DNA of 11,330 bases from an uncultured Chloroflexia bacterium (GCA_963766735.1 CAVYBU010000001.1:1-11330), one strand, 5' to 3'. Counted from the stretch's first letter, positions 1 through 8,197 are shown. A program made the numbers and translations. Notes: generated by a model not told the origin, from the letters alone.

Positions 1-82
1 TGTTTCGGACCCCGCATGAATAATGGGTTCCGGCCCTGGAGCCGCTAAGCGCGTCGATTGCCACCGGCGGGGTGGCAACGCT
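1..82 (+). repeat. Direct repeat copy 1 (element left end, P'-arm-like sequence following a tRNA 3' end)
   Basis: 1-59 TGTTTCGGACCCCGCATGAATAATGGGTTCCGGCCCTGGAGCCGCTAAGCGCGTCGATT is identical to 952-1010; looser similarity (CCAC...GCAACGCT) continues to 82/1034. Confidence 0.95.
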
Positions 83-91
83 TGTGGCAAC
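58..91. promoter_or_regulatory. Putative tyrosine-integrase arm-type binding sites (TTGCCAC inverted at 58-64; GTGGCAAC at 72-79 and 84-91)
   Basis: Tandem 8-mer pair with 12-bp period; the same pair recurs with 11-bp period at 7838-7856 next to the tRNA fragment. Function inferred from attP architecture. Confidence 0.6.
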
Positions 92-419
92 ACCCCGATT
101 TTCTAGGCGGCCAGCGGGGGGGGACACGACGCCAAGCGCCTTACGCGCGGTGACTTGCTCTCGTCGGGGAGGTCGGTCCGACCGTCGGCACGCACGCGGG
201 CCGGGTGCGTTCATCGTGCCGCTCGTCCACGACCCGACCGGTGCGGCGGCGCGAGCGCTGGGTGTGAGCCGCGGTGCGGCTCTTCCGCAGGACGACAGCA
301 TCATTCACGGATGTGATTCCCCCGGTGGGCGGCGACGCTGGAGGGCTTCATCCGCCGAGCGATGACGCCCTCATCAGCGGGAGGGTCGCGACGGAGCACT
401 CGCAACAAGGGGGAGCACG

Positions 420-836
420 ATGCCAGGACACAACGAGCACTTCACCGCCGTCCTCGAGGCCTTCAACGCCGGGGATTGGGGGCGCTTCCGCAAGCTCGTA
501 CCGGACTCCGCCGTCTACTTCGAGTCGGCGACCGGGCGCACGGTTCAGGGAGAGGCATACCTGGACCTGCTCAAGGGCTGGAGGGCGGCGTTCCCGGACA
601 TCACGGGCGAGATCACAGCGCTGATCGAGTCGGGGGACACCGCGTGCGGGGAGATCACCTGGACAGGCACCCACACCGGCACGCTCGTCGGTCCGGACGG
701 CAGCGAGATCCCCGCCTCGGGAGGGGCGCTGAACAACCCAGCAGCGATGGTCAACCACTACGAGGGGGACGCGCTCACTCGCATTCACCACTACTTCGAT
801 CTGCTGACCCTGCTTCGTCAGGTCGGGGCGGCCTGA
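420..836 (+). CDS. SnoaL-like ester cyclase / NTF2-like family protein (138 aa)
   Basis: RBS AAGGGGGAG at 407-415; motifs 'EAFNAGD', 'AAFPDI...GD....ITWTGTHTG.L.GPDG.EIPASG', 'HYFDLLTLLRQVG' typical of ester cyclases; GC-rich third positions. Confidence 0.92.
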   Translation: MPGHNEHFTAVLEAFNAGDWGRFRKLVPDSAVYFESATGRTVQGEAYLDLLKGWRAAFPDITGEITALIESGDTACGEITWTGTHTGTLVGPDGSEIPASGGALNNPAAMVNHYEGDALTRIHHYFDLLTLLRQVGAA

Positions 837-909
837 AGGGACGCGCCCGACCGCCGCAATCCCTCAATCCAATGGACGATCAGAGCTCCACAGGAGCCAC
901 GGGGTCTTG

Positions 910-952
910 CGCGTGATTATGGCGTCAGCGGTTCGGATCCGCTCGTCGGCTT
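910..952 (+). pseudogene. Degenerate 3' half of tRNA-Thr(CGT); internal att (attP-like) junction
   Basis: CGCGTGATTATGGCGTCAGCGGTTCGGATCCGCTCGTCGGCTT matches 7914-7956 at 37/43; T-arm AGCGG-TTCGGAT-CCGCT followed by acceptor strand CGTCGGC; no 5' half upstream. Confidence 0.8.
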
Positions 953-1034
953 GTTTCGGACCCCGCATGAATAATGGGTTCCGGCCCTGGAGCCGCTAAG
1001 CGCGTCGATTACCACGGGCAGGGATCGCAACGCT
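952..1034 (+). repeat. Direct repeat copy 2 (left end of unit 2) with decayed arm-like sites
   Basis: 952-1010 identical to 1-59; TTGCCAC has become TTACCAC, GTGGCAAC has become ATCGCAAC, and the second GTGGCAAC is absent. Confidence 0.95.
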
Positions 1035-1042
1035 CCCGAGCC

Positions 1043-1402
1043 CTAGGGGGGCAGCTCGCGCAGGTGACACGGCACGAGGACGTCCAGCCCCGAAGGCAAT
1101 GCAAGTCGGCATTGCAGTTGAAGTAGTACGTCGACCAGCGCCCGCGGACGCCGCCCTGGGGGGTGTCGTGGCCCGACAGGTCGGCCCCGCCGCAGGTGAG
1201 AGTGGCGCTCGAAGCCGGAGCTCTGGTCGTCGGAGTCGAGGACGTGCTGGTTGATGAAGCACTGGTTGTTCTCGGCGAGCCGTAGCTCGGTCGCGGCCCC
1301 CGGATCGGCGGGCACTCGCGTGAAGTAGAGCATCCGGCTGTCGTTCACCAGCTGAGGGGCTTCGAGCATCGGAAGCTTCGGGGTGGTCTGCTGAGCGATC
1401 AG
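1043..1402 (-). pseudogene. Probable 3' fragment of an unidentified gene with two compensating frameshifts
   Basis: GC-rich third positions in frame A (…PKLPMLEAPQLVNDSRMLYFTRVP…ENNQCFINQHVLDSDDQSSGFER) move to another frame near 1201 (LTCGGADLSGHDTPQGGVRGRWSTYYFNCNAD) and back near 1100 (LPSGLDVLVPCHLRELPP*). No convincing start or RBS. Confidence 0.45.
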
Positions 1403-1421
1403 TTTCGGGGTGGATCGAGCG

Positions 1422-2333
1422 TCACGGCCGTTCGGAGTCCCACCGCGCGACCGGCATCCAATGGTGCCTGCCATCGAGCCGCACGAGTTGCCCGAACGGT
1501 TCCGGGAAGTGACACGCGCCCACAGTCATTCCCTCCTGGGAGATCCGCTCGGCGAGAGCCGCGCGCGTCGCGCGTGCGAGCTCGGCGTCCATGTCGAAGG
1601 CGCACGCGAGCCCCGCATCGGTCACTTGGGCCGGGTGCAGCCAGACGTCACCCACGAGCATCGCTCGCTCCCCGGCCGAGTTGATGAGCAGACTCGTGCT
1701 TCCGGGCGTGTGTCCGGGGGTGCTGAGCAGTGCGAGCTGTGGGGAGAGTCGGTGCCCATCGTCGATCAGATCCACCACGCCCGACTCCACCAGCGGGCCG
1801 ATCGTGTCGCCGACGTACGGCACCGGGAACGCATCCTGGACCTCAGGCCGCCTCCACGTCTCCCAGTCGATCCGGGGGACCAGATAGCGCGCGCGAGGGA
1901 AGGCCGGCACCGGTTCGCGGGCCTCCGGTGCCAGCACACCGCCCACATGGTCGGGGTGGATGTGACTGATGATGACGGTGTCGATCTCCTGCAGCGACAC
2001 GTCGATCGCTGCGAGGCCAGCCCTGAGGGCGCCGCCGACCCCGATGAAGGACGGGAACGCCAGGGCCGCCGACCCGCATCCAGTATCGACGAGGATGCAG
2101 CGATCCTTGGTGCGCACGAGATAGCAGGTCACCACGTACCGCCAGCCGCCCGTCGCGCTGAAGGCCTCCGGATAGCGCGCGCGATGGCGCTCCCACGCCT
2201 CCGGTTCAAGTCCCGTGAAAACCTGCTCAACGGGCATCGGAAACGCGACATCGATGTCGAGCAGTGCGGTCAGGCTCACGTCCCCGACGGTCAGCGTAGG
2301 GGAGACGTTCGTTCCCGCCGTCTTCGTCATCAT
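1422..2333 (-). CDS. Metallo-beta-lactamase-fold metallohydrolase (YtnP / AHL-lactonase / methyl-parathion-hydrolase-like), 303 aa
   Basis: Motifs LVDTG, SHIHPDHVGG (HxHxDH), FPRARY, TPGHTPG, VGD, CHFP. Start moved from 2417 to ATG 2333, which has GGAG upstream. Confidence 0.92.
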   Translation of the reverse strand: MMTKTAGTNVSPTLTVGDVSLTALLDIDVAFPMPVEQVFTGLEPEAWERHRARYPEAFSATGGWRYVVTCYLVRTKDRCILVDTGCGSAALAFPSFIGVGGALRAGLAAIDVSLQEIDTVIISHIHPDHVGGVLAPEAREPVPAFPRARYLVPRIDWETWRRPEVQDAFPVPYVGDTIGPLVESGVVDLIDDGHRLSPQLALLSTPGHTPGSTSLLINSAGERAMLVGDVWLHPAQVTDAGLACAFDMDAELARATRAALAERISQEGMTVGACHFPEPFGQLVRLDGRHHWMPVARWDSERP

Positions 2334-2392
2334 CGTCTTCTCCGCGACGAGGTTGCCTAACGCGGTCAGGCTAGGACCCGCGCCGCGGCCGC

Positions 2393-2414
2393 CGCATCCC
2401 AAGTTCTTTACATC
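2393..2414 (-). promoter_or_regulatory. Putative LuxR-type operator box upstream of the MBL hydrolase
   Basis: Minus strand GATGTAAAGAACTTGGGATGCG, 19/22 identical to 6010-6031; -10-like TAGCCT 19 nt downstream (2373-2368). Confidence 0.65.
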
Positions 2415-2460
2415 CACACTGCGGGAACGCGCATTAGGCCGACTGACGCTGAGCCGGCGT

Positions 2461-5400
2461 TCATCTGACGGCGCCCTGCGCGAACCCGTCCGACTCGAGG
2501 CCGCCGTCGAGCGCCGCCCGTGTGGCCGCCGCGCGGTTCGTGACCCCGAGCTTTCCGAAGATGTTCGACACGTGCCGGATGGCCGTGCCCTCGCTGATGG
2601 TCAACCGCTCGGCGATCTGGCGATTGGTGAGACCGGCGGCCAGGAGGGCGAGGACCTCGCGCTCGCGTGGCGTCAGCCGTCGCAAGCCTGGCGGGCCGAG
2701 TTCCCGGACGCCGAGTTCCCCGGCGAGCTTCCCGAGTCGTGCCCTGTAGATCGGGGCGGGGATCCCGTCCAAGAGGCTGTGCGCCGTCTCCAGCGCCGGA
2801 CTCGGGTCACGCCCCTGGGCTCTGGCCACCAAGGCGAGATCCATATGGCACAAGGAGAGGTCGAAATCGCAACCGATTGTCTCGAGCCCGACCCGCGCCT
2901 CGCCGAGCCGGCGACGCGCCCCCGCCAGATCACCCTCGTCGAGTGCGATGCGACCACGGGTGCGCAGGTCGAGCGCCGCGACCCAGCGACAGCCGATGCG
3001 GCGCGCGATCTCCTCCGATCGCTCCGCCGGTCGTCGGGCGCCGGACAGGTCCCCATTCCGACGGCGCGCGTCCGCAAGCCAGCCGAGGAAGCGAGCCAGG
3101 ATGCCCGGATGCTTGGTCGACTCGGCGATCGCGATGGCCTGCTCGAGGGAGGCCAGGGCCTCGGTGAGTGCCCCGTGCTCGCGCTGAGCGAAGCCGAGCG
3201 CCCCGAGGGCCCATGCCGTGTTCGGTCCGTCGGGCGAGAGCTCGATCCCCAGTTGGCATCCCGCGATGCCGAGTTCGGTGTCGCCACGGGCCGCCTCGTA
3301 GAGCCCCTGGGCCCACGCGGCCCAGCTCCGCAATCGTGGATCGGCGACCGCGTCGCCGATGACGCCACCTCGAGCAGCCACCTCGAGCGCATCGTCGAAC
3401 CTGCCCATTGAGTAGAGGGAGTGCGCCATGAAGAAGTGGCAGTGTCCGAGCCACCACGTCTCCCCCGCTGCCTCGAGCAGTGGGACCGCGCGGGCGCCCT
3501 CACGCACGCCCTCTTCAAAGCAGCCGGTCCACCATGCCTGGCGTACCCGGATGTAGAGGGCTCGGCCGAGTGCCGCACTGTCCCCGAGCCGATCGGCCAG
3601 GCCGATCGAAGCGCGCACGGCGCGCTCCGCTTGATCCGGCTTGCCCAGATGGCTCGCCGTATGGGCCGTCCAGAACTCGAACGAGCACGCCAGCACGGGA
3701 TCCGGGCGCGCGTCGATCCGCTTCCTCAGGCCGGCCAGGACCTCCTCACTCTCCTCCAGCAGGCCAAGAAAGTAGATCGAGGCGACCAAGCGCAGGCTGA
3801 GCTCAGCGACGCGTCGCTCGCGCAATGCGGACGGGAGTCGCTCGGCATGACGCATGGCCTCGCGGAACAGCGCGCTCGCCTCAGCATGCGCGTATCCGCG
3901 GAAGCTCTTCTCCGCCGCTCGACTGAGGTACGCCACCGCGCGCGTGGCGTCGTCCGTGCGCGACCAGTGGAAGGCCAGCAGGCCGTCAACCTCCTCCGTC
4001 CGGCCCGCGTACAGCTCTTCCAGACAGAGGCCGGCGGCTTCGTGCAGTGCGGTGCGCGTGGGAGGAGGGACGCTCGCGTACGCGACATCCTGTGTGAGTG
4101 CGTGCTTGAACTCGTATCCGCGCTCATCTTCGTCAACCGCCTCGACGAGGAACTCCTCTCGAGTGAGGTCCTCGATCCAGGCCTGCAGCGGCTCCGGCCG
4201 AGACCAGACCGACGAAAGGAGCCGTAAGGGGAAGCGCCGCCCAAGCACAGCCGCGGCCTGGAGAACGGCCTTCGGCCCCTTCTCAAGACGGTCGATGCGT
4301 GCCATCAAGACGTCCTCGACGGTTGCCGGTACTTCGTCATCACCGTGGTCGGTGTAGGTCGCGAGAGCCAGTTCCTCGAGAAAGAAGGGATTGCCTCCTC
4401 CGCGATCGAGGATCGCGCGCCCGAGAGACTCGGGCACATCCTCGACGGCGAGCACGGAACGCACGACCTCCAGCGATTCCGAGGGACCCAACCGCGGCAG
4501 CGCGATCTGAGTCGAGTGCGACAGCTCAAGCCAGGCAGGGCGACAACCGGGTCGATACGTGGCGAGGAGAAGCACACGTGCCCCCGCGATGGCGGAAGCG
4601 AGGGACGCCAGGAGCCGCTCAGACGTGTCGTCGGCCCAATGGACGTCCTCCACCGCGACGACCAGGGCTTCACGCCGCGAGGCCGCGAGCACGAGGTGCC
4701 GGAGAGCCTCGAAGGTGCGAACCCGGACCGCCTCGGGGCTGAGTGACGCCGTCAGCCTTTCATCTGCCTCTGCGTCGAGCGCATCCAGTAGGCGGAGGAC
4801 ATACGGAGCGGCCCCCACCGGAGCGTCCAGCTGTGCAAAAGTTCTCTCAACCGCCTCAACCGCCTCAGAGCGCCCCTGAAGGGGTGCACCGCACAACGCA
4901 CGGACGAGGTCGATGATGGGCAGATACGGGTGACTCGCGCCATACGGCGCGCATCGGCCTTCCACCCAGCGCACGCGGCCGAGCGTGGCGCGTTGCGCCT
5001 CCTCCACCAGGCGTGACTTGCCCATCCCGGGCTCTGCGACGAAGCCGATGATCTGGCCAGAGCCGGACTCAGCGAGCGTCAACGCATCGTCGAGGAGGCG
5101 CATTTGGCGCTCCCGACCTACGAATCGGGTGAGAGGGCGTCCCTCGCGGCGACGGCTCGTGCGGCGCGCCGGAAGCATCTTGACCACCCGTCGAGCCTCT
5201 GCGGGTAGGTCCGGGCCCGCACCCGGCTCGACCTGGAAGGAGTCAGGAATCAGGGAGACGAGGGAGGATTCGACGAGCACCTCGCGGGGACCCGCGAGGC
5301 TGGCAAGCGCGAGGGCAGCTCGTATCGGCCCCTCTGCGACCTCCGCCGCCCGGGTGTGCGCATCTGCCGACAGCCGTCCCGATGCGATGCCCTGACCCAC

Positions 5401-5892
5401 GGACTCGGGGACCCCTGGGTCGTCCCGGAGCCGCAGAGCCGCGAGCAGGGCTCGCTCGAGGTGGTCCTCGAGCCAGCGGGGTGTCCCGAAGACCAGCGCC
5501 ACGCCAGCCTGGCTTGTCACGAGCTCACCGTCCAGATCGAGCGAGACCTTCTTCAGCGCGTCGGCGAAGGCTTCATCGTCACCCGTACGCGCCATCCCGA
5601 CGACGCTCGCCTGACGGAGCGACGATGCGCTGTCGGGCCACTCGCCCGAGCGTTGGGGCGCACCACAAGCAATACAGAACCGCTTACCTGCCTGGACGCC
5701 CGCCCCGCACCCTGCACACCGCGAGGGGATCGCGCTTCCGCAATCCTCGCAGTAGCGGGCCCCCTCTCGAAGGTGGGCGGCGCAGGCCGGGCACTGGGCA
5801 CCCAGCATCGGCTCCGCGCCGTGTCCCGGCCCGTCCCCGATCGAGTCAGTAGGTGTACCGGGCGGCGGCCCGGGGTCAGGTGGGTTCGGCAT
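2461..5892 (-). CDS. Large ATP-binding LuxR-family (STAND/LAL-like) regulator: double zinc ribbon + degenerate class III cyclase + AAA ATPase + TPR + LuxR HTH
   Basis: Four CxxC (CPAC..CEDCG..CAGCG..CIACG); cyclase-like 'LVFGTPRWLEDHLERALLAAL'; 'FVGRERQM'; Walker A 'EPGMGKS'; Walker B 'VVAVEDVHWAD'; 'GGNPFFLEEL'; 'YEFKHALTQDVAY'; Ala-rich helical repeats; HTH 'LTPREREVLALLAAGLTNRQIAERLTISEGTAIRHVSNIFGKLG'. Alternative start ATG 5808. Confidence 0.93.
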   Translation of the reverse strand: MPNPPDPGPPPGTPTDSIGDGPGHGAEPMLGAQCPACAAHLREGARYCEDCGSAIPSRCAGCGAGVQAGKRFCIACGAPQRSGEWPDSASSLRQASVVGMARTGDDEAFADALKKVSLDLDGELVTSQAGVALVFGTPRWLEDHLERALLAALRLRDDPGVPESVGQGIASGRLSADAHTRAAEVAEGPIRAALALASLAGPREVLVESSLVSLIPDSFQVEPGAGPDLPAEARRVVKMLPARRTSRRREGRPLTRFVGRERQMRLLDDALTLAESGSGQIIGFVAEPGMGKSRLVEEAQRATLGRVRWVEGRCAPYGASHPYLPIIDLVRALCGAPLQGRSEAVEAVERTFAQLDAPVGAAPYVLRLLDALDAEADERLTASLSPEAVRVRTFEALRHLVLAASRREALVVAVEDVHWADDTSERLLASLASAIAGARVLLLATYRPGCRPAWLELSHSTQIALPRLGPSESLEVVRSVLAVEDVPESLGRAILDRGGGNPFFLEELALATYTDHGDDEVPATVEDVLMARIDRLEKGPKAVLQAAAVLGRRFPLRLLSSVWSRPEPLQAWIEDLTREEFLVEAVDEDERGYEFKHALTQDVAYASVPPPTRTALHEAAGLCLEELYAGRTEEVDGLLAFHWSRTDDATRAVAYLSRAAEKSFRGYAHAEASALFREAMRHAERLPSALRERRVAELSLRLVASIYFLGLLEESEEVLAGLRKRIDARPDPVLACSFEFWTAHTASHLGKPDQAERAVRASIGLADRLGDSAALGRALYIRVRQAWWTGCFEEGVREGARAVPLLEAAGETWWLGHCHFFMAHSLYSMGRFDDALEVAARGGVIGDAVADPRLRSWAAWAQGLYEAARGDTELGIAGCQLGIELSPDGPNTAWALGALGFAQREHGALTEALASLEQAIAIAESTKHPGILARFLGWLADARRRNGDLSGARRPAERSEEIARRIGCRWVAALDLRTRGRIALDEGDLAGARRRLGEARVGLETIGCDFDLSLCHMDLALVARAQGRDPSPALETAHSLLDGIPAPIYRARLGKLAGELGVRELGPPGLRRLTPREREVLALLAAGLTNRQIAERLTISEGTAIRHVSNIFGKLGVTNRAAATRAALDGGLESDGFAQGAVR

Positions 5893-5992
5893 GCGAGCGA
5901 ATCCTCATCGTTTCCGACACTGGCACGGGGTCACGAGCCGGTCAACCGGCCCCGCGGAGGCCACTGCGTCTACAAGTGCAGCCCAGAGGGGG
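5890..5992 (+). pseudogene. Possible decayed 3' end of a paralogous LuxR-HTH gene
   Basis: 5926-5940 and 5953-5964 match the coding strand of the regulator at 2548-2522 at 14/15 and 11/12 with a 12-nt insertion; reads GVTSR....AEATA versus GVTNRAAAT. Confidence 0.4.
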
Positions 5993-6009
5993 ACACGTCT
6001 CTCCCCGAA

Positions 6010-6031
6010 GATGCAAAGCACTTGGGATGTG
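6010..6031 (+). promoter_or_regulatory. Putative LuxR-type operator box upstream of the aldehyde dehydrogenase
   Basis: GATGCAAAGCACTTGGGATGTG; inner 18 bp is an imperfect palindrome (12/18); 19/22 to the box at 2393-2414; -10-like CAGGAT 18 nt downstream (6050-6055). Confidence 0.65.
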
Positions 6032-6094
6032 CACCACGGGACGCGGCCCCAGGATCGCCACCGACCGAGTCTCCCGGCACGCCAAGGAGAACCA

Positions 6095-7624
6095 GTGCCT
6101 GCGATCACGCACACCGCCCCTCACCCACCCCGCCGCGTCGTCACCGAAGCCGATCTGGGCTCGGTCTTCACCGCCGAGGATCTCTGCCCCACGGGCCTGC
6201 TGATCGACGGCGCCTTCCTCGCGGCGGCCGCGGGCCGCACCCTCGTCGTCGAGGATCCGGCCACCGGTCGTGAGATCGCCGAGGTGGCCGACGCCGCACC
6301 GGCCGACTGCATGGCGGCTCTGGAGGCGGCGGTGGCCGCACAGGGATCGTGGGCGGCGAGCGCCCCCCGCGAGCGCGCGCGGATCCTGCGCCGCGCGGCC
6401 GACGCCCTTCGCGACCAGGCCGAGCAGATGGCGCGCCTTCTCACGGCCGAGATGGGAAAGCCTCTTTCGGAGTCACGCGCCGAGGTCGAGTTCGCCGCCG
6501 ACTACCTGGAGTGGTTCGCCGAGGAGGCCGTGCGGATCTCGGGGCGGACGTCTGTGTCTCCTGATGGTGAGTCCCAGCACCTGGTCGTGCGCACCCCGGT
6601 GGGGCCGTGCCTGGTGATCAGCCCCTGGAACTTCCCCCTGGCCGTTCCGGCGCGCGGGATCGGCCCGGCGCTCGCCGCCGGCTGCACGGTGGTGCTTCGG
6701 CCCTCCTCGCTCACGCCGCTGTCGGCGCTCGCCCTGGGGCAGATCCTCATTGAGGCCGGCCTCCCGGCCGGAGTGCTCAACATCGTCGTCTCGTCCGAGG
6801 ACGGGGCGACCGATCCGCTCCTTTGCGACGGGCGGATCCGCAAGCTGACCTTCACCGGATCGGAGGCCGTCGGGCGCCACCTGATCGCGAAAAGCGCCGA
6901 GCAGGTGCTGCGGGTCTCGGCCGAGCTCGGGGGCTGTGCGCCGTTTCTGGTCTTCGCCGATGCCGACATGGACGCCGCCGTCGAGGGCGCCCTGGCGGCC
7001 AAGATGCGAAACGGCGGGGCGGCCTGCACCGCGGCCAACCGCTTCTACGTCGAGCGCTCGGTGTATCCCGAGTTCACCCGTCGCCTCGCCGCGCGGATCG
7101 GGCAGGTGCGCATCGGCCCGGGCGTGCGCGCGGGGGTCGGCTGCGGGCCGATGATCAGCGCGCGCCAGGTCGCGCGGCTGACGGAGCTGGTCAACGACGC
7201 CGTGGGGCGCGGGGCGCGCGTGGTCCTCGCCGGCGGCCCGGTCCCGGGCAACGGGCACTTCTTCGCCCCGGTGGTTCTGGCCGACGTCCCCCATGAGGCG
7301 CGGGTGATGCGCGAGGAGATCTTCGGACCCGTGGTGGCGATCGCGCCCTTCGAAACCGAGGACGAGGCCCTTCGCCTGGCCAACGACCACGACGCCGGCC
7401 TCGCGGCCTACTTGTTCACCACCGACCTCGAGCGGGCGATGCGCCTGGGCGCCGCCATCAAGGCGGGGATGGTCGCGATCAACCGCGGCCGGGTGTCGTG
7501 CGTTTCGGCCCCCTTCGGCGGTGTGGGCCACTCGGGCTTCGGCCACTCCGGGGGATCCGAGGGCATCGATGAGTACCTGGTGACCCGCTACCTGACGATG
7601 CCGGCGACGGGCGGTGCATGGTGA
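6095..7624 (+). CDS. gabD: NAD(P)-dependent succinate-semialdehyde dehydrogenase-like aldehyde dehydrogenase (509 aa)
   Basis: RBS AAGGAGA at 6084-6090 before GTG 6095; motifs EMGKPL.E, WFAEEA.R, PWNFP, FTGS, ELGG (catalytic Glu), KMRNGGAACTAANR (catalytic Cys), EEIFGPV, APFGG. Confidence 0.88.
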   Translation: MPAITHTAPHPPRRVVTEADLGSVFTAEDLCPTGLLIDGAFLAAAAGRTLVVEDPATGREIAEVADAAPADCMAALEAAVAAQGSWAASAPRERARILRRAADALRDQAEQMARLLTAEMGKPLSESRAEVEFAADYLEWFAEEAVRISGRTSVSPDGESQHLVVRTPVGPCLVISPWNFPLAVPARGIGPALAAGCTVVLRPSSLTPLSALALGQILIEAGLPAGVLNIVVSSEDGATDPLLCDGRIRKLTFTGSEAVGRHLIAKSAEQVLRVSAELGGCAPFLVFADADMDAAVEGALAAKMRNGGAACTAANRFYVERSVYPEFTRRLAARIGQVRIGPGVRAGVGCGPMISARQVARLTELVNDAVGRGARVVLAGGPVPGNGHFFAPVVLADVPHEARVMREEIFGPVVAIAPFETEDEALRLANDHDAGLAAYLFTTDLERAMRLGAAIKAGMVAINRGRVSCVSAPFGGVGHSGFGHSGGSEGIDEYLVTRYLTMPATGGAW

Positions 7625-7812
7625 TGGGGCCCGAGGATCCGCGGCCGGCCGGCGACTGGGAATCCTTTCGGGCCGCCCGCGAGCGCTTCTTTTCCCGGGT
7701 GCGACCGGAGGCGATGGACGATCCACCGCAGTCGGTGTGCCCGGACGCGCTGCCCGAGGGGTGGCGACGCGATGAGGAGTGCGCACCCGGCGAGGACTCC
7801 GCGGGCGCCTGA
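7624..7812 (+). CDS. Small hypothetical protein (62 aa), possibly translationally coupled to the dehydrogenase
   Basis: TGATG stop/start overlap at 7622-7626 (alternative ATG 7618); ends just before the right arm repeats; no recognisable domain. Confidence 0.35.
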   Translation: MGPEDPRPAGDWESFRAARERFFSRVRPEAMDDPPQSVCPDALPEGWRRDEECAPGEDSAGA

Positions 7813-7837
7813 GGCCCGCGCCCCGCCGAGCAGCCGA

Positions 7838-7856
7838 GTGGCAACATGGTGGCAAC
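7838..7856 (+). promoter_or_regulatory. Putative integrase arm-type site pair GTGGCAAC-ATG-GTGGCAAC (right end)
   Basis: Same 8-mer pair as at 72-91, ending 57 bp before the tRNA fragment. Confidence 0.6.
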
Positions 7857-7913
7857 CCAGCGGCCCGGAACCGCCGCAAGCCCATGGGCCTCCGGGCCGG
7901 CGGACGGGCCTTG

Positions 7914-7956
7914 CTCGTGATGAAGGGGGCAGCGGTTCGAATCCGCTCGTCGGCTT
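7914..7956 (+). pseudogene. 3' half of tRNA-Thr(CGT); attR-like site
   Basis: CTCGTGA (anticodon loop, CGT) TGAAG GGGGC AGCGG-TTCGAAT-CCGCT CGTCGGC T: canonical T-arm and acceptor 3' strand; no matching GCCGACG 5' strand or D-arm upstream, so not a functional tRNA. Confidence 0.88.
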
Positions 7957-8197
7957 CCCTTCCTCAGGGCGTTTCTCCTGCACGCGAGCCTGTTCGTGCC
8001 CTCCGGCCGGCCCACGATCCTCACGCCTGAGGTCACCGAGGCCAGCTGCGGCTTCCTGCGCGGCCCGAGCGCGCGTGAGTGCCGAGTCCCCCACTGTGGC
8101 TCATGAGGCCATGTCGGCGCGGCCAAGAGCGGGAGGGACTGAGCATGGCGAGGCGCAGGAACGCCGAAGGGATTTTCGCTGTGCAAGGATCTTCGTC

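What the first reader, a model, noticed from the sequence alone, without database searches (positions are those of the whole stretch)
1..7956. Tandem integrase-less cassettes delimited by tRNA-Thr 3' halves (integron-like accretion at a tRNA)
Seen: the order is [tRNA end inferred just before base 1]-left arm-cargo-[tRNA half 910-952]-same left arm-cargo-[GTGGCAAC pair]-[tRNA half 7914-7956], with no recombinase in either unit. Known: tyrosine integrases often cross over in tRNA anticodon loops, and tandem integration leaves attP-like junctions between elements. Inference: unrelated cargo packaged between the same att ends is stacked at one tRNA by an integrase acting in trans, giving a cassette array with tRNA-derived att sites instead of attC.
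Basis: partly seen in the sequence, partly recalled or inferred. Interest (0 to 1): 0.8.

Follow-up and report, generated by a model that had tools for sequence, protein, structure and literature searches.

The report
Integrase-less island array at tRNA-Thr
This short contig is a piece of a stack of gene islands inserted one after another at a threonine tRNA gene, each bounded by a leftover half of that tRNA; such stacks are a known kind of thing, here seen in a little-studied group of soil actinobacteria and without any visible integrase.

Summary
The repeats are real. There are two tRNA-Thr(CGT) 3' halves, at 910-951 and 7914-7955. They match the Thermoleophilia tRNA at 36/42 and 40/42 positions. 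A 59-nt exact (about 83-115 nt diverged) left arm follows the contig start and the first half. Two same-strand GTGGCAAC pairs sit at 72-91 and 7838-7856 (4 exact 8-mers against 0.22 expected).

The window is a whole 11.3-kb contig, so nothing upstream of base 1 can be tested. The contig is probably foreign to its bin. This tRNA 3' end was not found in any of the bin's relatives searched. Named Thermoleophilia MAGs carry it, plus an 85%-identical ALDH module lying directly before a half.

Those MAGs hold the same architecture on a larger scale: an intact tRNA-Thr followed by 4 to 12 direct half copies over 20-130 kb. Cargo is unrelated between units. Each array has 0 or 1 tyrosine recombinase, and about 200-nt right arms carry the same GTGGCAAC pair.

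I read the window as an inner or distal piece of such a site-specific accretion array. The left arms are P' arms and 7838-7856 is a P-arm site pair. Mobilisation in trans and the integron analogy remain untested, and no cognate integrase was found.

Tandem att-bounded islands, some without integrases, are already described at ssrA in Dehalococcoides, in tycheposon islands and as streptococcal CIMEs. Novelty: new member of a known kind. Interest is moderate.

The parts
1..91 (+). Left arm copy 1 (L1), read as the P' arm of an integrative element. It holds three 8-mer sites: 57-64 (inverted, 1 mismatch), 72-79 and 84-91 (GTGGCAAC, 4-nt spacer). Weaker likeness to copy 2 runs on to about 115.
   Evidence: G066 has a homologous arm after its 356.6k half, with TTCGGACCCC at +4 and GTGGCAAC-N4-GTGGCAACACC at +72.
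420..836 (+). Cargo of unit A: SnoaL / ketosteroid-isomerase-like protein, 138 aa.
   Evidence: Pfam PF07366, E 2e-18. TIGR02096, below cut-off.
902..909 (+). Last 8 nt of the right arm of unit A (GGGTCTTG), shared with the arm before half 2 (GGGCCTTG). There is no GTGGCAAC in this arm.
   Evidence: L247's arm also ends in CCTTG before CTCG.
910..951 (+). Half 1 (H1): decayed 3' part of tRNA-Thr(CGT), anticodon loop to discriminator. It is read as the recombination core at an internal junction. Its T-loop reads TTCGGAT where the intact tRNA has TTCGAAT.
   Evidence: 36/42 to the G066 tRNA. Repeat D2.
952..1034 (+). Left arm copy 2 (L2): 59 nt identical to L1, then diverged. One GTGGCAAC is deleted and the other is mutated (GATCGCAAC).
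1043..1474 (-). ORF of 143 aa with no family match. Whether it is a real gene is uncertain.
1422..2417 (-). Cargo of unit B: MBL-fold hydrolase, lactonase-like. The real start is probably near 2336, by my reading of the sequence.
   Evidence: PF00753, E 2e-23. AidB-like lactonase, below cut-off.
2461..5892 (-). Cargo of unit B: 1143-aa regulator with a double zinc ribbon, AAA_16 ATPase, TPR and a LuxR/GerE HTH.
   Evidence: Similar large regulators lie in the G068 array.
6095..7624 (+). Cargo of unit B: aldehyde dehydrogenase, succinate-semialdehyde-dehydrogenase-like.
   Evidence: PF00171, E 2e-153. TIGR01780, below cut-off. 84% aa / 85% nt identity to a G066 gene that also lies just before a half.
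7618..7812 (+). Small ORF of 64 aa that overlaps the ALDH stop. It travels with ALDH paralogues, also outside arrays, so it is read as cargo and not as an excisionase.
7838..7856 (+). GTGGCAAC-ATG-GTGGCAAC pair in the right (P) arm of unit B, 57 nt before half 2.
   Evidence: The same pair with a 3-nt spacer lies about 146 nt before the T-arm core in G067-G070 and L247.
7914..7955 (+). Half 2 (H2): 3' part of tRNA-Thr(CGT), read as the recombination core of an attR-type junction.
   Evidence: 40/42..
7956..7967 (+). TCCCTTCCTCAG directly after half 2. It is identical to the 12 nt after the last G066 half (453.0k). It is either the start of the next arm or the original flank.

Best explanation
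The window is an inner or distal fragment of a tandem genomic-island array anchored at a tRNA-Thr(CGT) gene. The host is a Thermoleophilia-like actinobacterium and probably not the organism that makes up most of the bin.

Inferred mechanism: elements entered one after another by site-specific recombination. By analogy this is a lambda-type tyrosine integrase that crosses over in the anticodon loop. Each entry rebuilds the tRNA and pushes the previous 3' half downstream. That leaves direct 42-nt half copies at 910-951 and 7914-7955. On this reading 1-91 and 952-1034 are P' arms. The stretch 7813-7913, with its GTGGCAAC pair, is a P arm. The 8-mers are arm-type binding sites.

The two units carry ordinary accessory genes and no recombinase. 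Unit A is about 0.95 kb and holds a SnoaL-like gene. Unit B is about 7.0 kb and holds an MBL hydrolase, a LuxR-type ATPase regulator, an ALDH and a small ORF. They are relics or passive passengers of accretion. The integrase, if it still exists, lies upstream of base 1 or elsewhere.

Shown: the repeats, their tRNA identity, their motif pairs, and the same architecture in relatives. Inferred: the integrase chemistry, the arm-site function and the position of the intact tRNA.
For: - Repeats and motif statistics.
Of these, 77 are intact tRNA-Thr genes, 7 are cut by contig ends and 37 are half copies. 33 of the 37 begin at the anticodon-loop motif.
- Arrays in the same orientation downstream of an intact tRNA-Thr(CGT):
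  - G066:C13 has the tRNA plus 9 halves over 130 kb.
  - G069:C2 has the tRNA plus 12 over 81 kb, with spacings of 1.1-16.8 kb.
  - G068:C2 has the tRNA plus 4.
  - L247 has the tRNA plus 2.
- G066 has one PF00589 gene in the array, directly after the tRNA. This is the classical tRNA-int-...-half order.
- G066 holds ALDH plus the small ORF at 85% nt identity directly before a half. It also holds an L1-like arm with GTGGCAAC-N4-GTGGCAAC at +72 after a half.
- In G067-G070, all 16 GTGGCAAC-N3-GTGGCAAC sites (<=1 mismatch) lie on contigs that carry tRNA-Thr halves and on the halves' strand. In every case I checked against a held half, the pair lies 140-147 nt before the T-arm core. The control pattern gave 3 hits.
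- Other arm families carry their own paired 8-mers at similar distances: TGGCCCAC and GTGCACCC.
- G068 and G069 share the flank upstream of the tRNA at 85% but share almost no cargo.
Against: - No intact tRNA-Thr of this type exists in the contig or the assembly, so the anchor is inferred.
- No recombinase was found in any array with GTGGCAAC-type arms: G067-G070, L247 and the window. Integrase involvement rests on analogy.
- The proximal half H1 is more decayed than the distal H2. This is the opposite of simple proximal growth.
- The roughly 200-nt right arm is well kept in at least 9 integrase-less units with unrelated cargo. That fits function (rival 1) better than plain decay.
- Units are arm mosaics.
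- The PF00589 search is a six-frame screen with a loose first pass and can miss divergent recombinases.
Confidence: 0.72

Rival explanations
1. The units are non-autonomous, integrase-less mobile elements (CIME-like or cassette-like). They keep functional att arms and are excised and inserted at tRNA-Thr(CGT) by an integrase, plus an RDF, encoded elsewhere. In the window the excisable unit would be the composite 1-7955. Its ends, L1 with three sites and R2 with a pair, would rebuild a complete attP of about 235 nt. The inner junction (R1-H1-L2) is a decayed relic.
For: - Right arms of about 200 nt are kept across at least 9 units in G067-G070 and L247. Both 8-mers are exact in 8 of these 9, while the 3-nt spacer varies (GCT, GGG, AGG, ACG, AGA...).
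- No conserved coding sequence lies next to these arms.
- No PF00589 or PF00239 gene lies in those arrays.
- Cargo turnover between related genomes is complete.
- L1 and R2 carry intact sites, while L2 and R1 do not.
- The L1-type arm is kept between the window and G066.
- The literature proposes just this for ssrA islands that lack integration modules (PMC3146451, passages).
Against: - No cognate integrase was found anywhere.
- No circle or empty-site reads were seen. One search gave no cover at 1-378 and only sparse contigs elsewhere.
- The left arms of units with conserved right arms are not conserved. A complete attP is therefore not evident for most units.
- Arms within a unit often belong to different families, as expected after deletions.
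- H1 is decayed.
Confidence: 0.2
2. The H1+L2 block (910 to about 1058) is a segmental duplication of the tRNA end plus its downstream region. It would have arisen by unequal or illegitimate recombination, not by a second integration. Only one old integration (half 2) would then be recorded in the window.
For: - Half and arm are duplicated together as one block of about 150 nt.
- Unit A is very small (0.95 kb, one gene).
- R1 has no arm sites.
- G066 shows internal duplication of the right-end module: the ALDH 3' end plus small ORF occurs again at 411.2-411.4k.
Against: - Small units of 1.1-1.5 kb bounded by halves recur in G068 and G069 and in L028.
- H1 starts exactly at the anticodon-loop position, as do 33 of the 37 other half copies.
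- R1 and R2 share the same last 8 nt before the core, as expected if both were joined by the same recombination.
Confidence: 0.08
3. Assembly artefact: the 59-nt repeat and the contig start come from mis-joining strain variants at a conserved tRNA.
For: - Copy 1 lies at the very start of the contig, and no run laid covers 1-378.
- Base 1 coincides exactly with the first base after the tRNA end.
- Assemblies often break in this tRNA: 7 of 121 sites are cut by contig ends.
Against: - The two copies differ after nt 59 by substitutions and an 11-nt indel.
- H1 is a decayed half with non-tRNA sequence on its 5' side, not a strain copy of the tRNA.
- A separate Logan contig spans the H1 T-arm, L2 and the start of unit B with 1 mismatch.
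- The same architecture exists in long contigs of other genomes.
Confidence: 0.04

Closest known systems
Tandem ssrA-specific genomic islands of Dehalococcoides (McMurdie et al. 2011, PMC3146451; passages read)
   Same: Several islands are stacked downstream of one small-RNA gene. Each is bounded by a direct repeat of its 3' end, all within about 100 kb, and the number varies between strains. Some islands lack the integration module, and the authors discuss them as possible cis-mobilizable elements moved by accretion.
   Different: The anchor there is tmRNA with a 20-bp repeat in the T-loop. Here it is tRNA-Thr(CGT) with a 42-nt repeat from the anticodon loop. The recombinase there is a CcrB-like serine recombinase present in 16 islands. 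Here no serine recombinase was found, and one array (G066) holds a single tyrosine recombinase.
Tycheposon-built islands of Prochlorococcus (Hackl et al., bioRxiv 10.1101/2020.12.28.424599; passages read)
   Same: Elements integrate at tRNA genes and neighbouring elements are separated only by a partial tRNA copy. New arrivals push older ones further into the island. Degenerate remnants and scattered partial tRNAs record older events.
   Different: Those elements carry their own tyrosine recombinase, and 937 integrase-carrying elements were found. The host phylum is different. The window and most related arrays show no recombinase and have a conserved right arm with paired GTGGCAAC.
CIMEs and site-specific accretion in streptococcal ICESt1-type elements (Pavlovic et al. 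2004, cited as ref. 54 in PMC3146451; otherwise recalled, not read)
   Same: These are elements flanked by att sites that encode neither integrase nor transfer functions. They sit in tandem with an autonomous element and can be co-excised with it.
   Different: There the helper element is known and mobilisation was shown at the bench. Here no helper was found and nothing has been shown.
Lambda-type attP and actinomycete integrative elements (pSAM2, SLP1) at tRNA genes (recalled knowledge, not from a call)
   Same: An identity segment runs from the anticodon loop to the tRNA 3' end. Arm-type sites lie on both sides of the core, roughly -60 to -130 and +55 to +90.
   Different: Those elements carry int and xis next to attP. 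No protein has been tied to the GTGGCAAC sites.
Integrons
   Same: Only the abstract idea is shared: unrelated cargo stacked at one site between recurring recombination sites.
   Different: There is no intI, attI or attC. Units are 1-34 kb with several genes on both strands. The sites are double-stranded tRNA-derived cores with arms, not folded single-strand attC.

Membership tests
tRNA-anchored integrative element / genomic island array | Direct repeats that are copies of the 3' part of a tRNA gene, in one orientation | tested here: met
   36/42 and 40/42 to tRNA-Thr(CGT), both on the + strand.
tRNA-anchored integrative element / genomic island array | Intact target tRNA gene at the upstream end | not testable with these tools
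   The window is the whole contig. No matching tRNA is present in the assembly. The feature is met in the related arrays G066, G068, G069 and L247.
tRNA-anchored integrative element / genomic island array | Site-specific recombinase gene within or beside the element | tested here: not met
   None in the window. One lies beside the tRNA in G066 and in G071. None lies in the arrays of G068 or G069, near the halves of G067 or G070, or in the L247 unit.
tRNA-anchored integrative element / genomic island array | Variable presence or cargo between related genomes | tested here: met
   Only ALDH plus the small ORF is shared with G066. G068 and G069 share the flank but not the cargo. The L-arm 20-mer is absent from two collections.
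Cis-mobilizable element (CIME) / non-autonomous att-flanked element | att sites on both sides and no integrase or transfer genes | tested here: met
Cis-mobilizable element (CIME) / non-autonomous att-flanked element | Excision or transfer with the help of a related autonomous element | not testable with these tools
   No helper was found. One search gave no informative reads.
Integron | intI integrase with attI and Pc next to the array | tested here: not met
   No PF00589 hit on C1.
Integron | attC sites (imperfect inverted repeats) after each, mostly single-ORF and co-oriented, cassette | tested here: not met
   The sites are tRNA halves. Unit B has genes on both strands. The fold of the arm is not better than shuffles (z -0.8).
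Functional tRNA gene | Complete cloverleaf recognised by a tRNA model | tested here: not met
   Rfam gives no hit. ARAGORN's 'tRNA-His' at 7879-7958 lacks a matching 5' half. The upstream sequence is unrelated to the tRNA (one search gives the comparison).

The most novel reading that the evidence does not exclude
The stretch 1-7955 is one non-autonomous element whose ends rebuild a complete lambda-like attP: a two-site P arm at 7838-7856, the 42-nt tRNA-Thr core, and a three-site P' arm at 57-91. It belongs to a family of integrase-less units tagged with GTGGCAAC arms. An unidentified recombinase encoded elsewhere shuffles these units in and out of tRNA-Thr(CGT). This builds hypervariable arrays of 20-130 kb (up to 12 half sites) in uncultured Thermoleophilia. 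Functionally this would be a tRNA-anchored counterpart of an integron.
Probability: 0.18. Interest if true: 0.75.

Novelty: new member of a known kind. Interest (0 to 1): 0.42.

Why it matters
If the plain reading holds, tRNA-Thr(CGT) is a major gene-flux hotspot in uncultured soil and sediment Thermoleophilia. It holds up to 12 stacked units and 80-130 kb of accessory genes, and turnover between related genomes is complete. That is useful for reading their pangenomes and for spotting island-borne contigs that binning misplaces.

If the bolder reading holds, it would add a system in which many integrase-less cargo units share one arm signature and depend on a recombinase in trans. That would bear on how gene cassettes are pooled outside integrons.

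For the scan itself, the case shows that a contig's tRNA remnants can reveal that it does not belong to its bin.

Tried and rejected
- Rfam. The whole window gave nothing. Cutting the sequence at the halves to allow truncated hits gave only weak T-arm matches: cyano_tmRNA at E 3 and 0.013.
- L-arm 20-mer. It gave 0 hits in genome contigs and 0 in metagenome contigs. Searching DNA 1-1100 in 60 relatives gave only chance-level short hits.
- Sequencing runs. There were 8 holders, all with small shares. Laying X1, X3, X5 and X7 gave no cover at 1-378, no joint at the att sites and no loose ends there. This yields no verdict on circles, empty sites or what lies before base 1.
- Composition as a test of binning. 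C1 lies within the bin's spread: its tetranucleotide distance is in the upper 6% and its GC is 0.696 against a mean of 0.707. This is not decisive.
- DUF2252 identity as a test of origin. The best match in the genus is 62% aa, and Solirubrobacterales genomes give 57-61%. On its own this is ambiguous.
- A third, decayed half at 157-197, suggested by alignment A2. Its local score of 20 is below the maxima of 40 shuffles (23-35). Rejected.
- L arm as terminator or structured RNA. The fold z-score is -0.8, and the scan found no terminator-like site there.
- Phage origin. The tRNA core gave 0 hits in viral contigs. Of the 205 loci held, only 1 (L247) has a tRNA-Thr core nearby.
- Serine recombinases in G066, G068 and G069. 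Each genome has one, far from the arrays.
- Conserved genes beside GTGGCAAC-type right arms. None were found. The recurrent ORF families in the arrays are SAM methyltransferases and IS3-type transposases.
- The G066 integrase as the cognate enzyme. Its own arms carry GTGCACCC pairs, not GTGGCAAC. It has a homologue in only 1 of the 117 loci (L121, in pieces).
- The small ORF 7618-7812 as an excisionase. It follows ALDH paralogues outside arrays too and matches no family. Rejected.
- The GTGGCAAC-N4 pair in five genomes. The only exact site is the G066 356.7k arm. The 1-mismatch hits are no more frequent than the control.
- Literature. A search for GTGGCAAC returned only unrelated primer matches in the 10 papers listed of 1,282. 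A search for Thermoleophilia + integrase + tRNA + genomic island returned 1 paper, a genome survey that I saw only in the listing. I therefore found no description of these arrays in print with those two searches. Supplements of papers were closed and not seen. They may hold island maps relevant to the comparison with tycheposons and ssrA islands.

Full report
WHAT THE WINDOW IS. The 11,330-base window is the complete contig C1 of a 35-contig, 3.6-Mb assembly. Nothing upstream of base 1 exists in the data.

- One search finds 1-72 repeated at 952-1023 at 96% identity. The first 59 nt are exact.
- A pairwise alignment carries the likeness on to about position 115. An 11-nt gap removes one GTGGCAAC from copy 2.
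- One search also finds 902-952 repeated at 7906-7956 at 86%.
- Both copies are the 3' part of a tRNA-Thr(CGT), from the anticodon loop to the discriminator base. Against the intact gene of a related genome they match at 36/42 (910-951) and 40/42 (7914-7955).
- Neither is a working tRNA. ARAGORN's single call, 'tRNA-His' at 7879-7958, is a misreading of half 2. Rfam finds nothing on the window and only weak T-arm likeness on cut-outs.
- GTGGCAAC occurs exactly 4 times, all on the + strand, as two pairs at 72/84 and 7838/7849. The expectation is 0.22, and 0 of 200 shuffles reach 4.
- These are the only such pairs in the whole assembly.
- A fifth copy, inverted and with one mismatch, lies at 57-64.

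GENES.
- Unit A (1-951) holds one SnoaL / ketosteroid-isomerase-like gene (420-836).
- Unit B (952-7955) holds an MBL-fold lactonase-like hydrolase, a 1143-aa zinc-ribbon/AAA_16/TPR/LuxR regulator, a succinate-semialdehyde-dehydrogenase-like ALDH and a 64-aa ORF coupled to it. An unassigned ORF is also present.
- To the right of half 2 lie a DUF2306 membrane protein and a DUF2252 protein.
- No recombinase of any kind is present.

WHOSE DNA IS IT? I read C1 as most likely a binning contaminant (stated contamination 4.2%). Transfer of a whole island region cannot be excluded.
- The assembly's own tRNAs differ from the halves. At best 29 of 45 positions are identical, and the nine genuine tRNAs printed all end in an encoded CCA. 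The halves are not followed by CCA.
- The 24-nt T-arm/acceptor core of the halves, allowing up to 2 mismatches, was found in 0 of 60 relatives: 36 of the same genus and 24 of the same order.
- In a draw of 150 genomes of the class there was no exact match. Twelve genomes of the same family carry a one-mismatch variant with a different acceptor end.
Many of these are records named Thermoleophilia, Solirubrobacterales, Gaiellales, Rubrobacter or Coriobacteriia.
- One such genome (G066) matches the window's ALDH region at 85% nt and its DUF2252 at 80-81% nt.
- The bin's large contigs match the G066 array region only at 66-72%. Two other short contigs, C28 and C35, match it at 81-93%.
- Composition does not separate C1 from the bin.

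WHAT RELATIVES SHOW. The 117 loci hold 121 core sites. Of these, 77 are intact tRNA-Thr genes, 7 are cut by contig ends and 37 are half copies. 33 of the 37 start at the anticodon-loop motif. Whole arrays exist:
- G066:C13 has an intact tRNA-Thr(CGT) at 322.7k followed by 9 same-strand halves up to 453.0k. Spacings are 2.2-33.9 kb.
- G069:C2 has the tRNA plus 12 halves over 81 kb. Spacings are 1.1-16.8 kb.
- G068:C2 has the tRNA plus 4 halves, spaced 1.5, 8.6, 1.3 and 7.1 kb.
- The metagenome contig L247 has the tRNA plus 2 halves.
These counts allow up to 4 substitutions in the 24-nt core, so one or two sites per array may be doubtful.

The window's spacings of 0.95 and 7.0 kb fit this range. 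G066 has a single tyrosine recombinase in the array, immediately after the tRNA. G069 and G068 have none in their arrays, and no serine recombinase either. Six ORFs of the 5-kb tRNA-proximal unit of L247 include a weak MarR-like match (below Pfam's cut-off) and a GDSL lipase, but no recombinase. G068 and G069 share the flank upstream of the tRNA at 85% and share almost no array cargo.

THE ARMS.
- The GTGGCAAC-N3-GTGGCAAC pair lies 140-147 nt before the T-arm core of halves in L031, L049 and L057, and before several halves of the G069 array.
- Genome-wide in G067-G070, all 16 sites (<=1 mismatch) lie on contigs that carry tRNA-Thr halves and on the halves' strand. The control pattern gave 3 hits (compared with the half positions).
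- Single-linkage BLAST of the 200 nt before each half groups 13 arms, including the window's. One link, to G066 411.5k, runs through the small ORF rather than the arm. The window's own links are short: 29-42 nt around the pair.
- In an alignment of nine non-window arms, eight keep both 8-mers exact, while the 3-nt spacer varies.
- In the window the pair sits closer to the half, at 57 nt.
- L247's arm ends ...CCTTG before CTCG, like both window arms.
- The left arm L1 has a homologue too. After the G066 356.6k half come TTCGGACCCC at +4 and GTGGCAAC-N4-GTGGCAACACC at +72, the same places as in L1.
- Other arm families have their own paired 8-mers at like distances: TGGCCCAC and GTGCACCC in the arm of the integrase-bearing G066 element.
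- From recalled knowledge of lambda attP (arm-type sites on both arms, about 240 bp in all), this is what integrase or RDF arm sites look like. No call tests binding.

MECHANISM. The best-supported reading is serial site-specific integration at tRNA-Thr(CGT). The crossover is in the anticodon loop, each event rebuilds the tRNA, and the old 3' half is displaced downstream. On this reading L1 and L2 are P' arms and 7813-7913 is a P arm. The window is a recombinase-free inner or distal stretch of the array. I put this at about 0.72.

Several observations are not explained by it:
- No recombinase is tied to any GTGGCAAC arm.
- H1 is more decayed than the more distal H2.
- The right arms of integrase-less units are well kept although their cargo is unrelated and no conserved gene adjoins them.
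- The left arms of those units are not conserved.
- Units are mosaics of arm families.
- The contig starts exactly at the tRNA/arm boundary. Assemblies often break in this tRNA (7 of 121 sites), but an exact break at that boundary is not accounted for.

RIVALS.
- (1) Trans-mobilised, non-autonomous units, at about 0.2. In the window only the composite 1-7955 has intact sites at both ends, because L2 and R1 are decayed.
- (2) H1+L2 as a segmental duplication, at about 0.08.
- (3) Assembly artefact, at about 0.04. Against it: the copies diverge after nt 59. A separate Logan contig covers 924-1071 with one mismatch, although with only 28-29 letters left of the boundary and possibly from the source sample.

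COMPARISON WITH WHAT IS KNOWN.
- Tandem islands bounded by direct repeats of a small-RNA gene's 3' end are described for Dehalococcoides ssrA. That description includes islands without integration modules and the suggestion that they are cis-mobilizable by accretion (PMC3146451, passages).
- Stacking at tRNAs with partial tRNA copies and degenerate remnants is described for tycheposon islands of Prochlorococcus (bioRxiv 10.1101/2020.12.28.424599, passages).
- Further titles on tandem accretion were seen only in the search listing.
- The window is not an integron. It has no intI and no attC, and unit B has several genes on both strands.
- I found no paper on such arrays in Thermoleophilia or on the GTGGCAAC arms with the searches.

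VERDICT. It is a new member of a known kind: a site-specific accretion array at a tRNA. The open side question is how so many integrase-less units keep one arm signature. Interest 0.42.

Noticed in passing
whole window (contig C1); also G000 contigs C28 and C35: C1 is probably not from the bin's main organism. Its tRNA-Thr remnants match no tRNA of the assembly, the genus or the class sample. C1, C28 and C35 match a Thermoleophilia array region at 81-93%, while large contigs match at 66-72%.
   Followed up: partly
G066:C13:322707-453009 (loci L146-L152): An intact tRNA-Thr(CGT) is followed by 9 same-strand half copies over 130 kb. The only tyrosine recombinase lies directly after the tRNA.
   Followed up: yes
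G069:C2:628046-709035 (loci L153-L157); a further GTGGCAAC pair at 726.7k: The tRNA-Thr is followed by 12 half copies over 81 kb, with no PF00589 or PF00239 hit in the region. The pair at 726.7k suggests the array runs on beyond what I fetched.
   Followed up: partly
L247 (reverse strand) about 3270-3290; G066 arms before the 407.4k and 441.8k halves: A second paired 8-mer (TGGCCCAC-like) marks another arm family. In L247 it lies upstream of the intact tRNA, not of a half. This is unexpected for an element arm.
   Followed up: no
L147:18520-18545 (G066, before the 356.6k half): The integrase-bearing G066 element has its own paired 8-mer, GTGCACCC-N4-GTGCACCC, about 70-90 nt before the half.
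   Followed up: no
window 7879-7958: ARAGORN calls a tRNA-His(gtg) here. It is the tRNA-Thr half plus unrelated upstream sequence, so automated annotation would mislabel it.
   Followed up: yes
window 7618-7812; G066:C13 404901-405089, 411285-411416, 397838-397924: A 64-aa ORF overlaps the ALDH stop codon. It is conserved with ALDH paralogues, and truncated copies lie before two other halves in G066. It matches no family.
   Followed up: partly
window 7761-7768: GTGGCGAC (one mismatch to the motif) lies inside the small ORF, close to the distance before the half at which the exact pair sits in other genomes. It may be a relic or chance.
   Followed up: no
G068:C2 about 19.7-21.1k (L158/L159): The 1.5-kb 'unit' between the intact tRNA and the first half is filled by an IS3-family transposase (rve, HTH_21). 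Copies of the same IS family sit in the G066 and G071 arrays.
   Followed up: partly
window 2461-5892 (- strand): A large regulator has an N-terminal double zinc ribbon before an AAA_16 ATPase, TPR and a LuxR HTH. It is divergently placed next to the ALDH. G066 has three large paralogous proteins in the same position relative to its ALDH, but they do not cluster with the window's regulator.
   Followed up: no
window base 1: The contig begins exactly at the base that follows the tRNA 3' end in copy 2. Seven of 121 tRNA-Thr sites in other assemblies are also cut by contig ends.
   Followed up: partly
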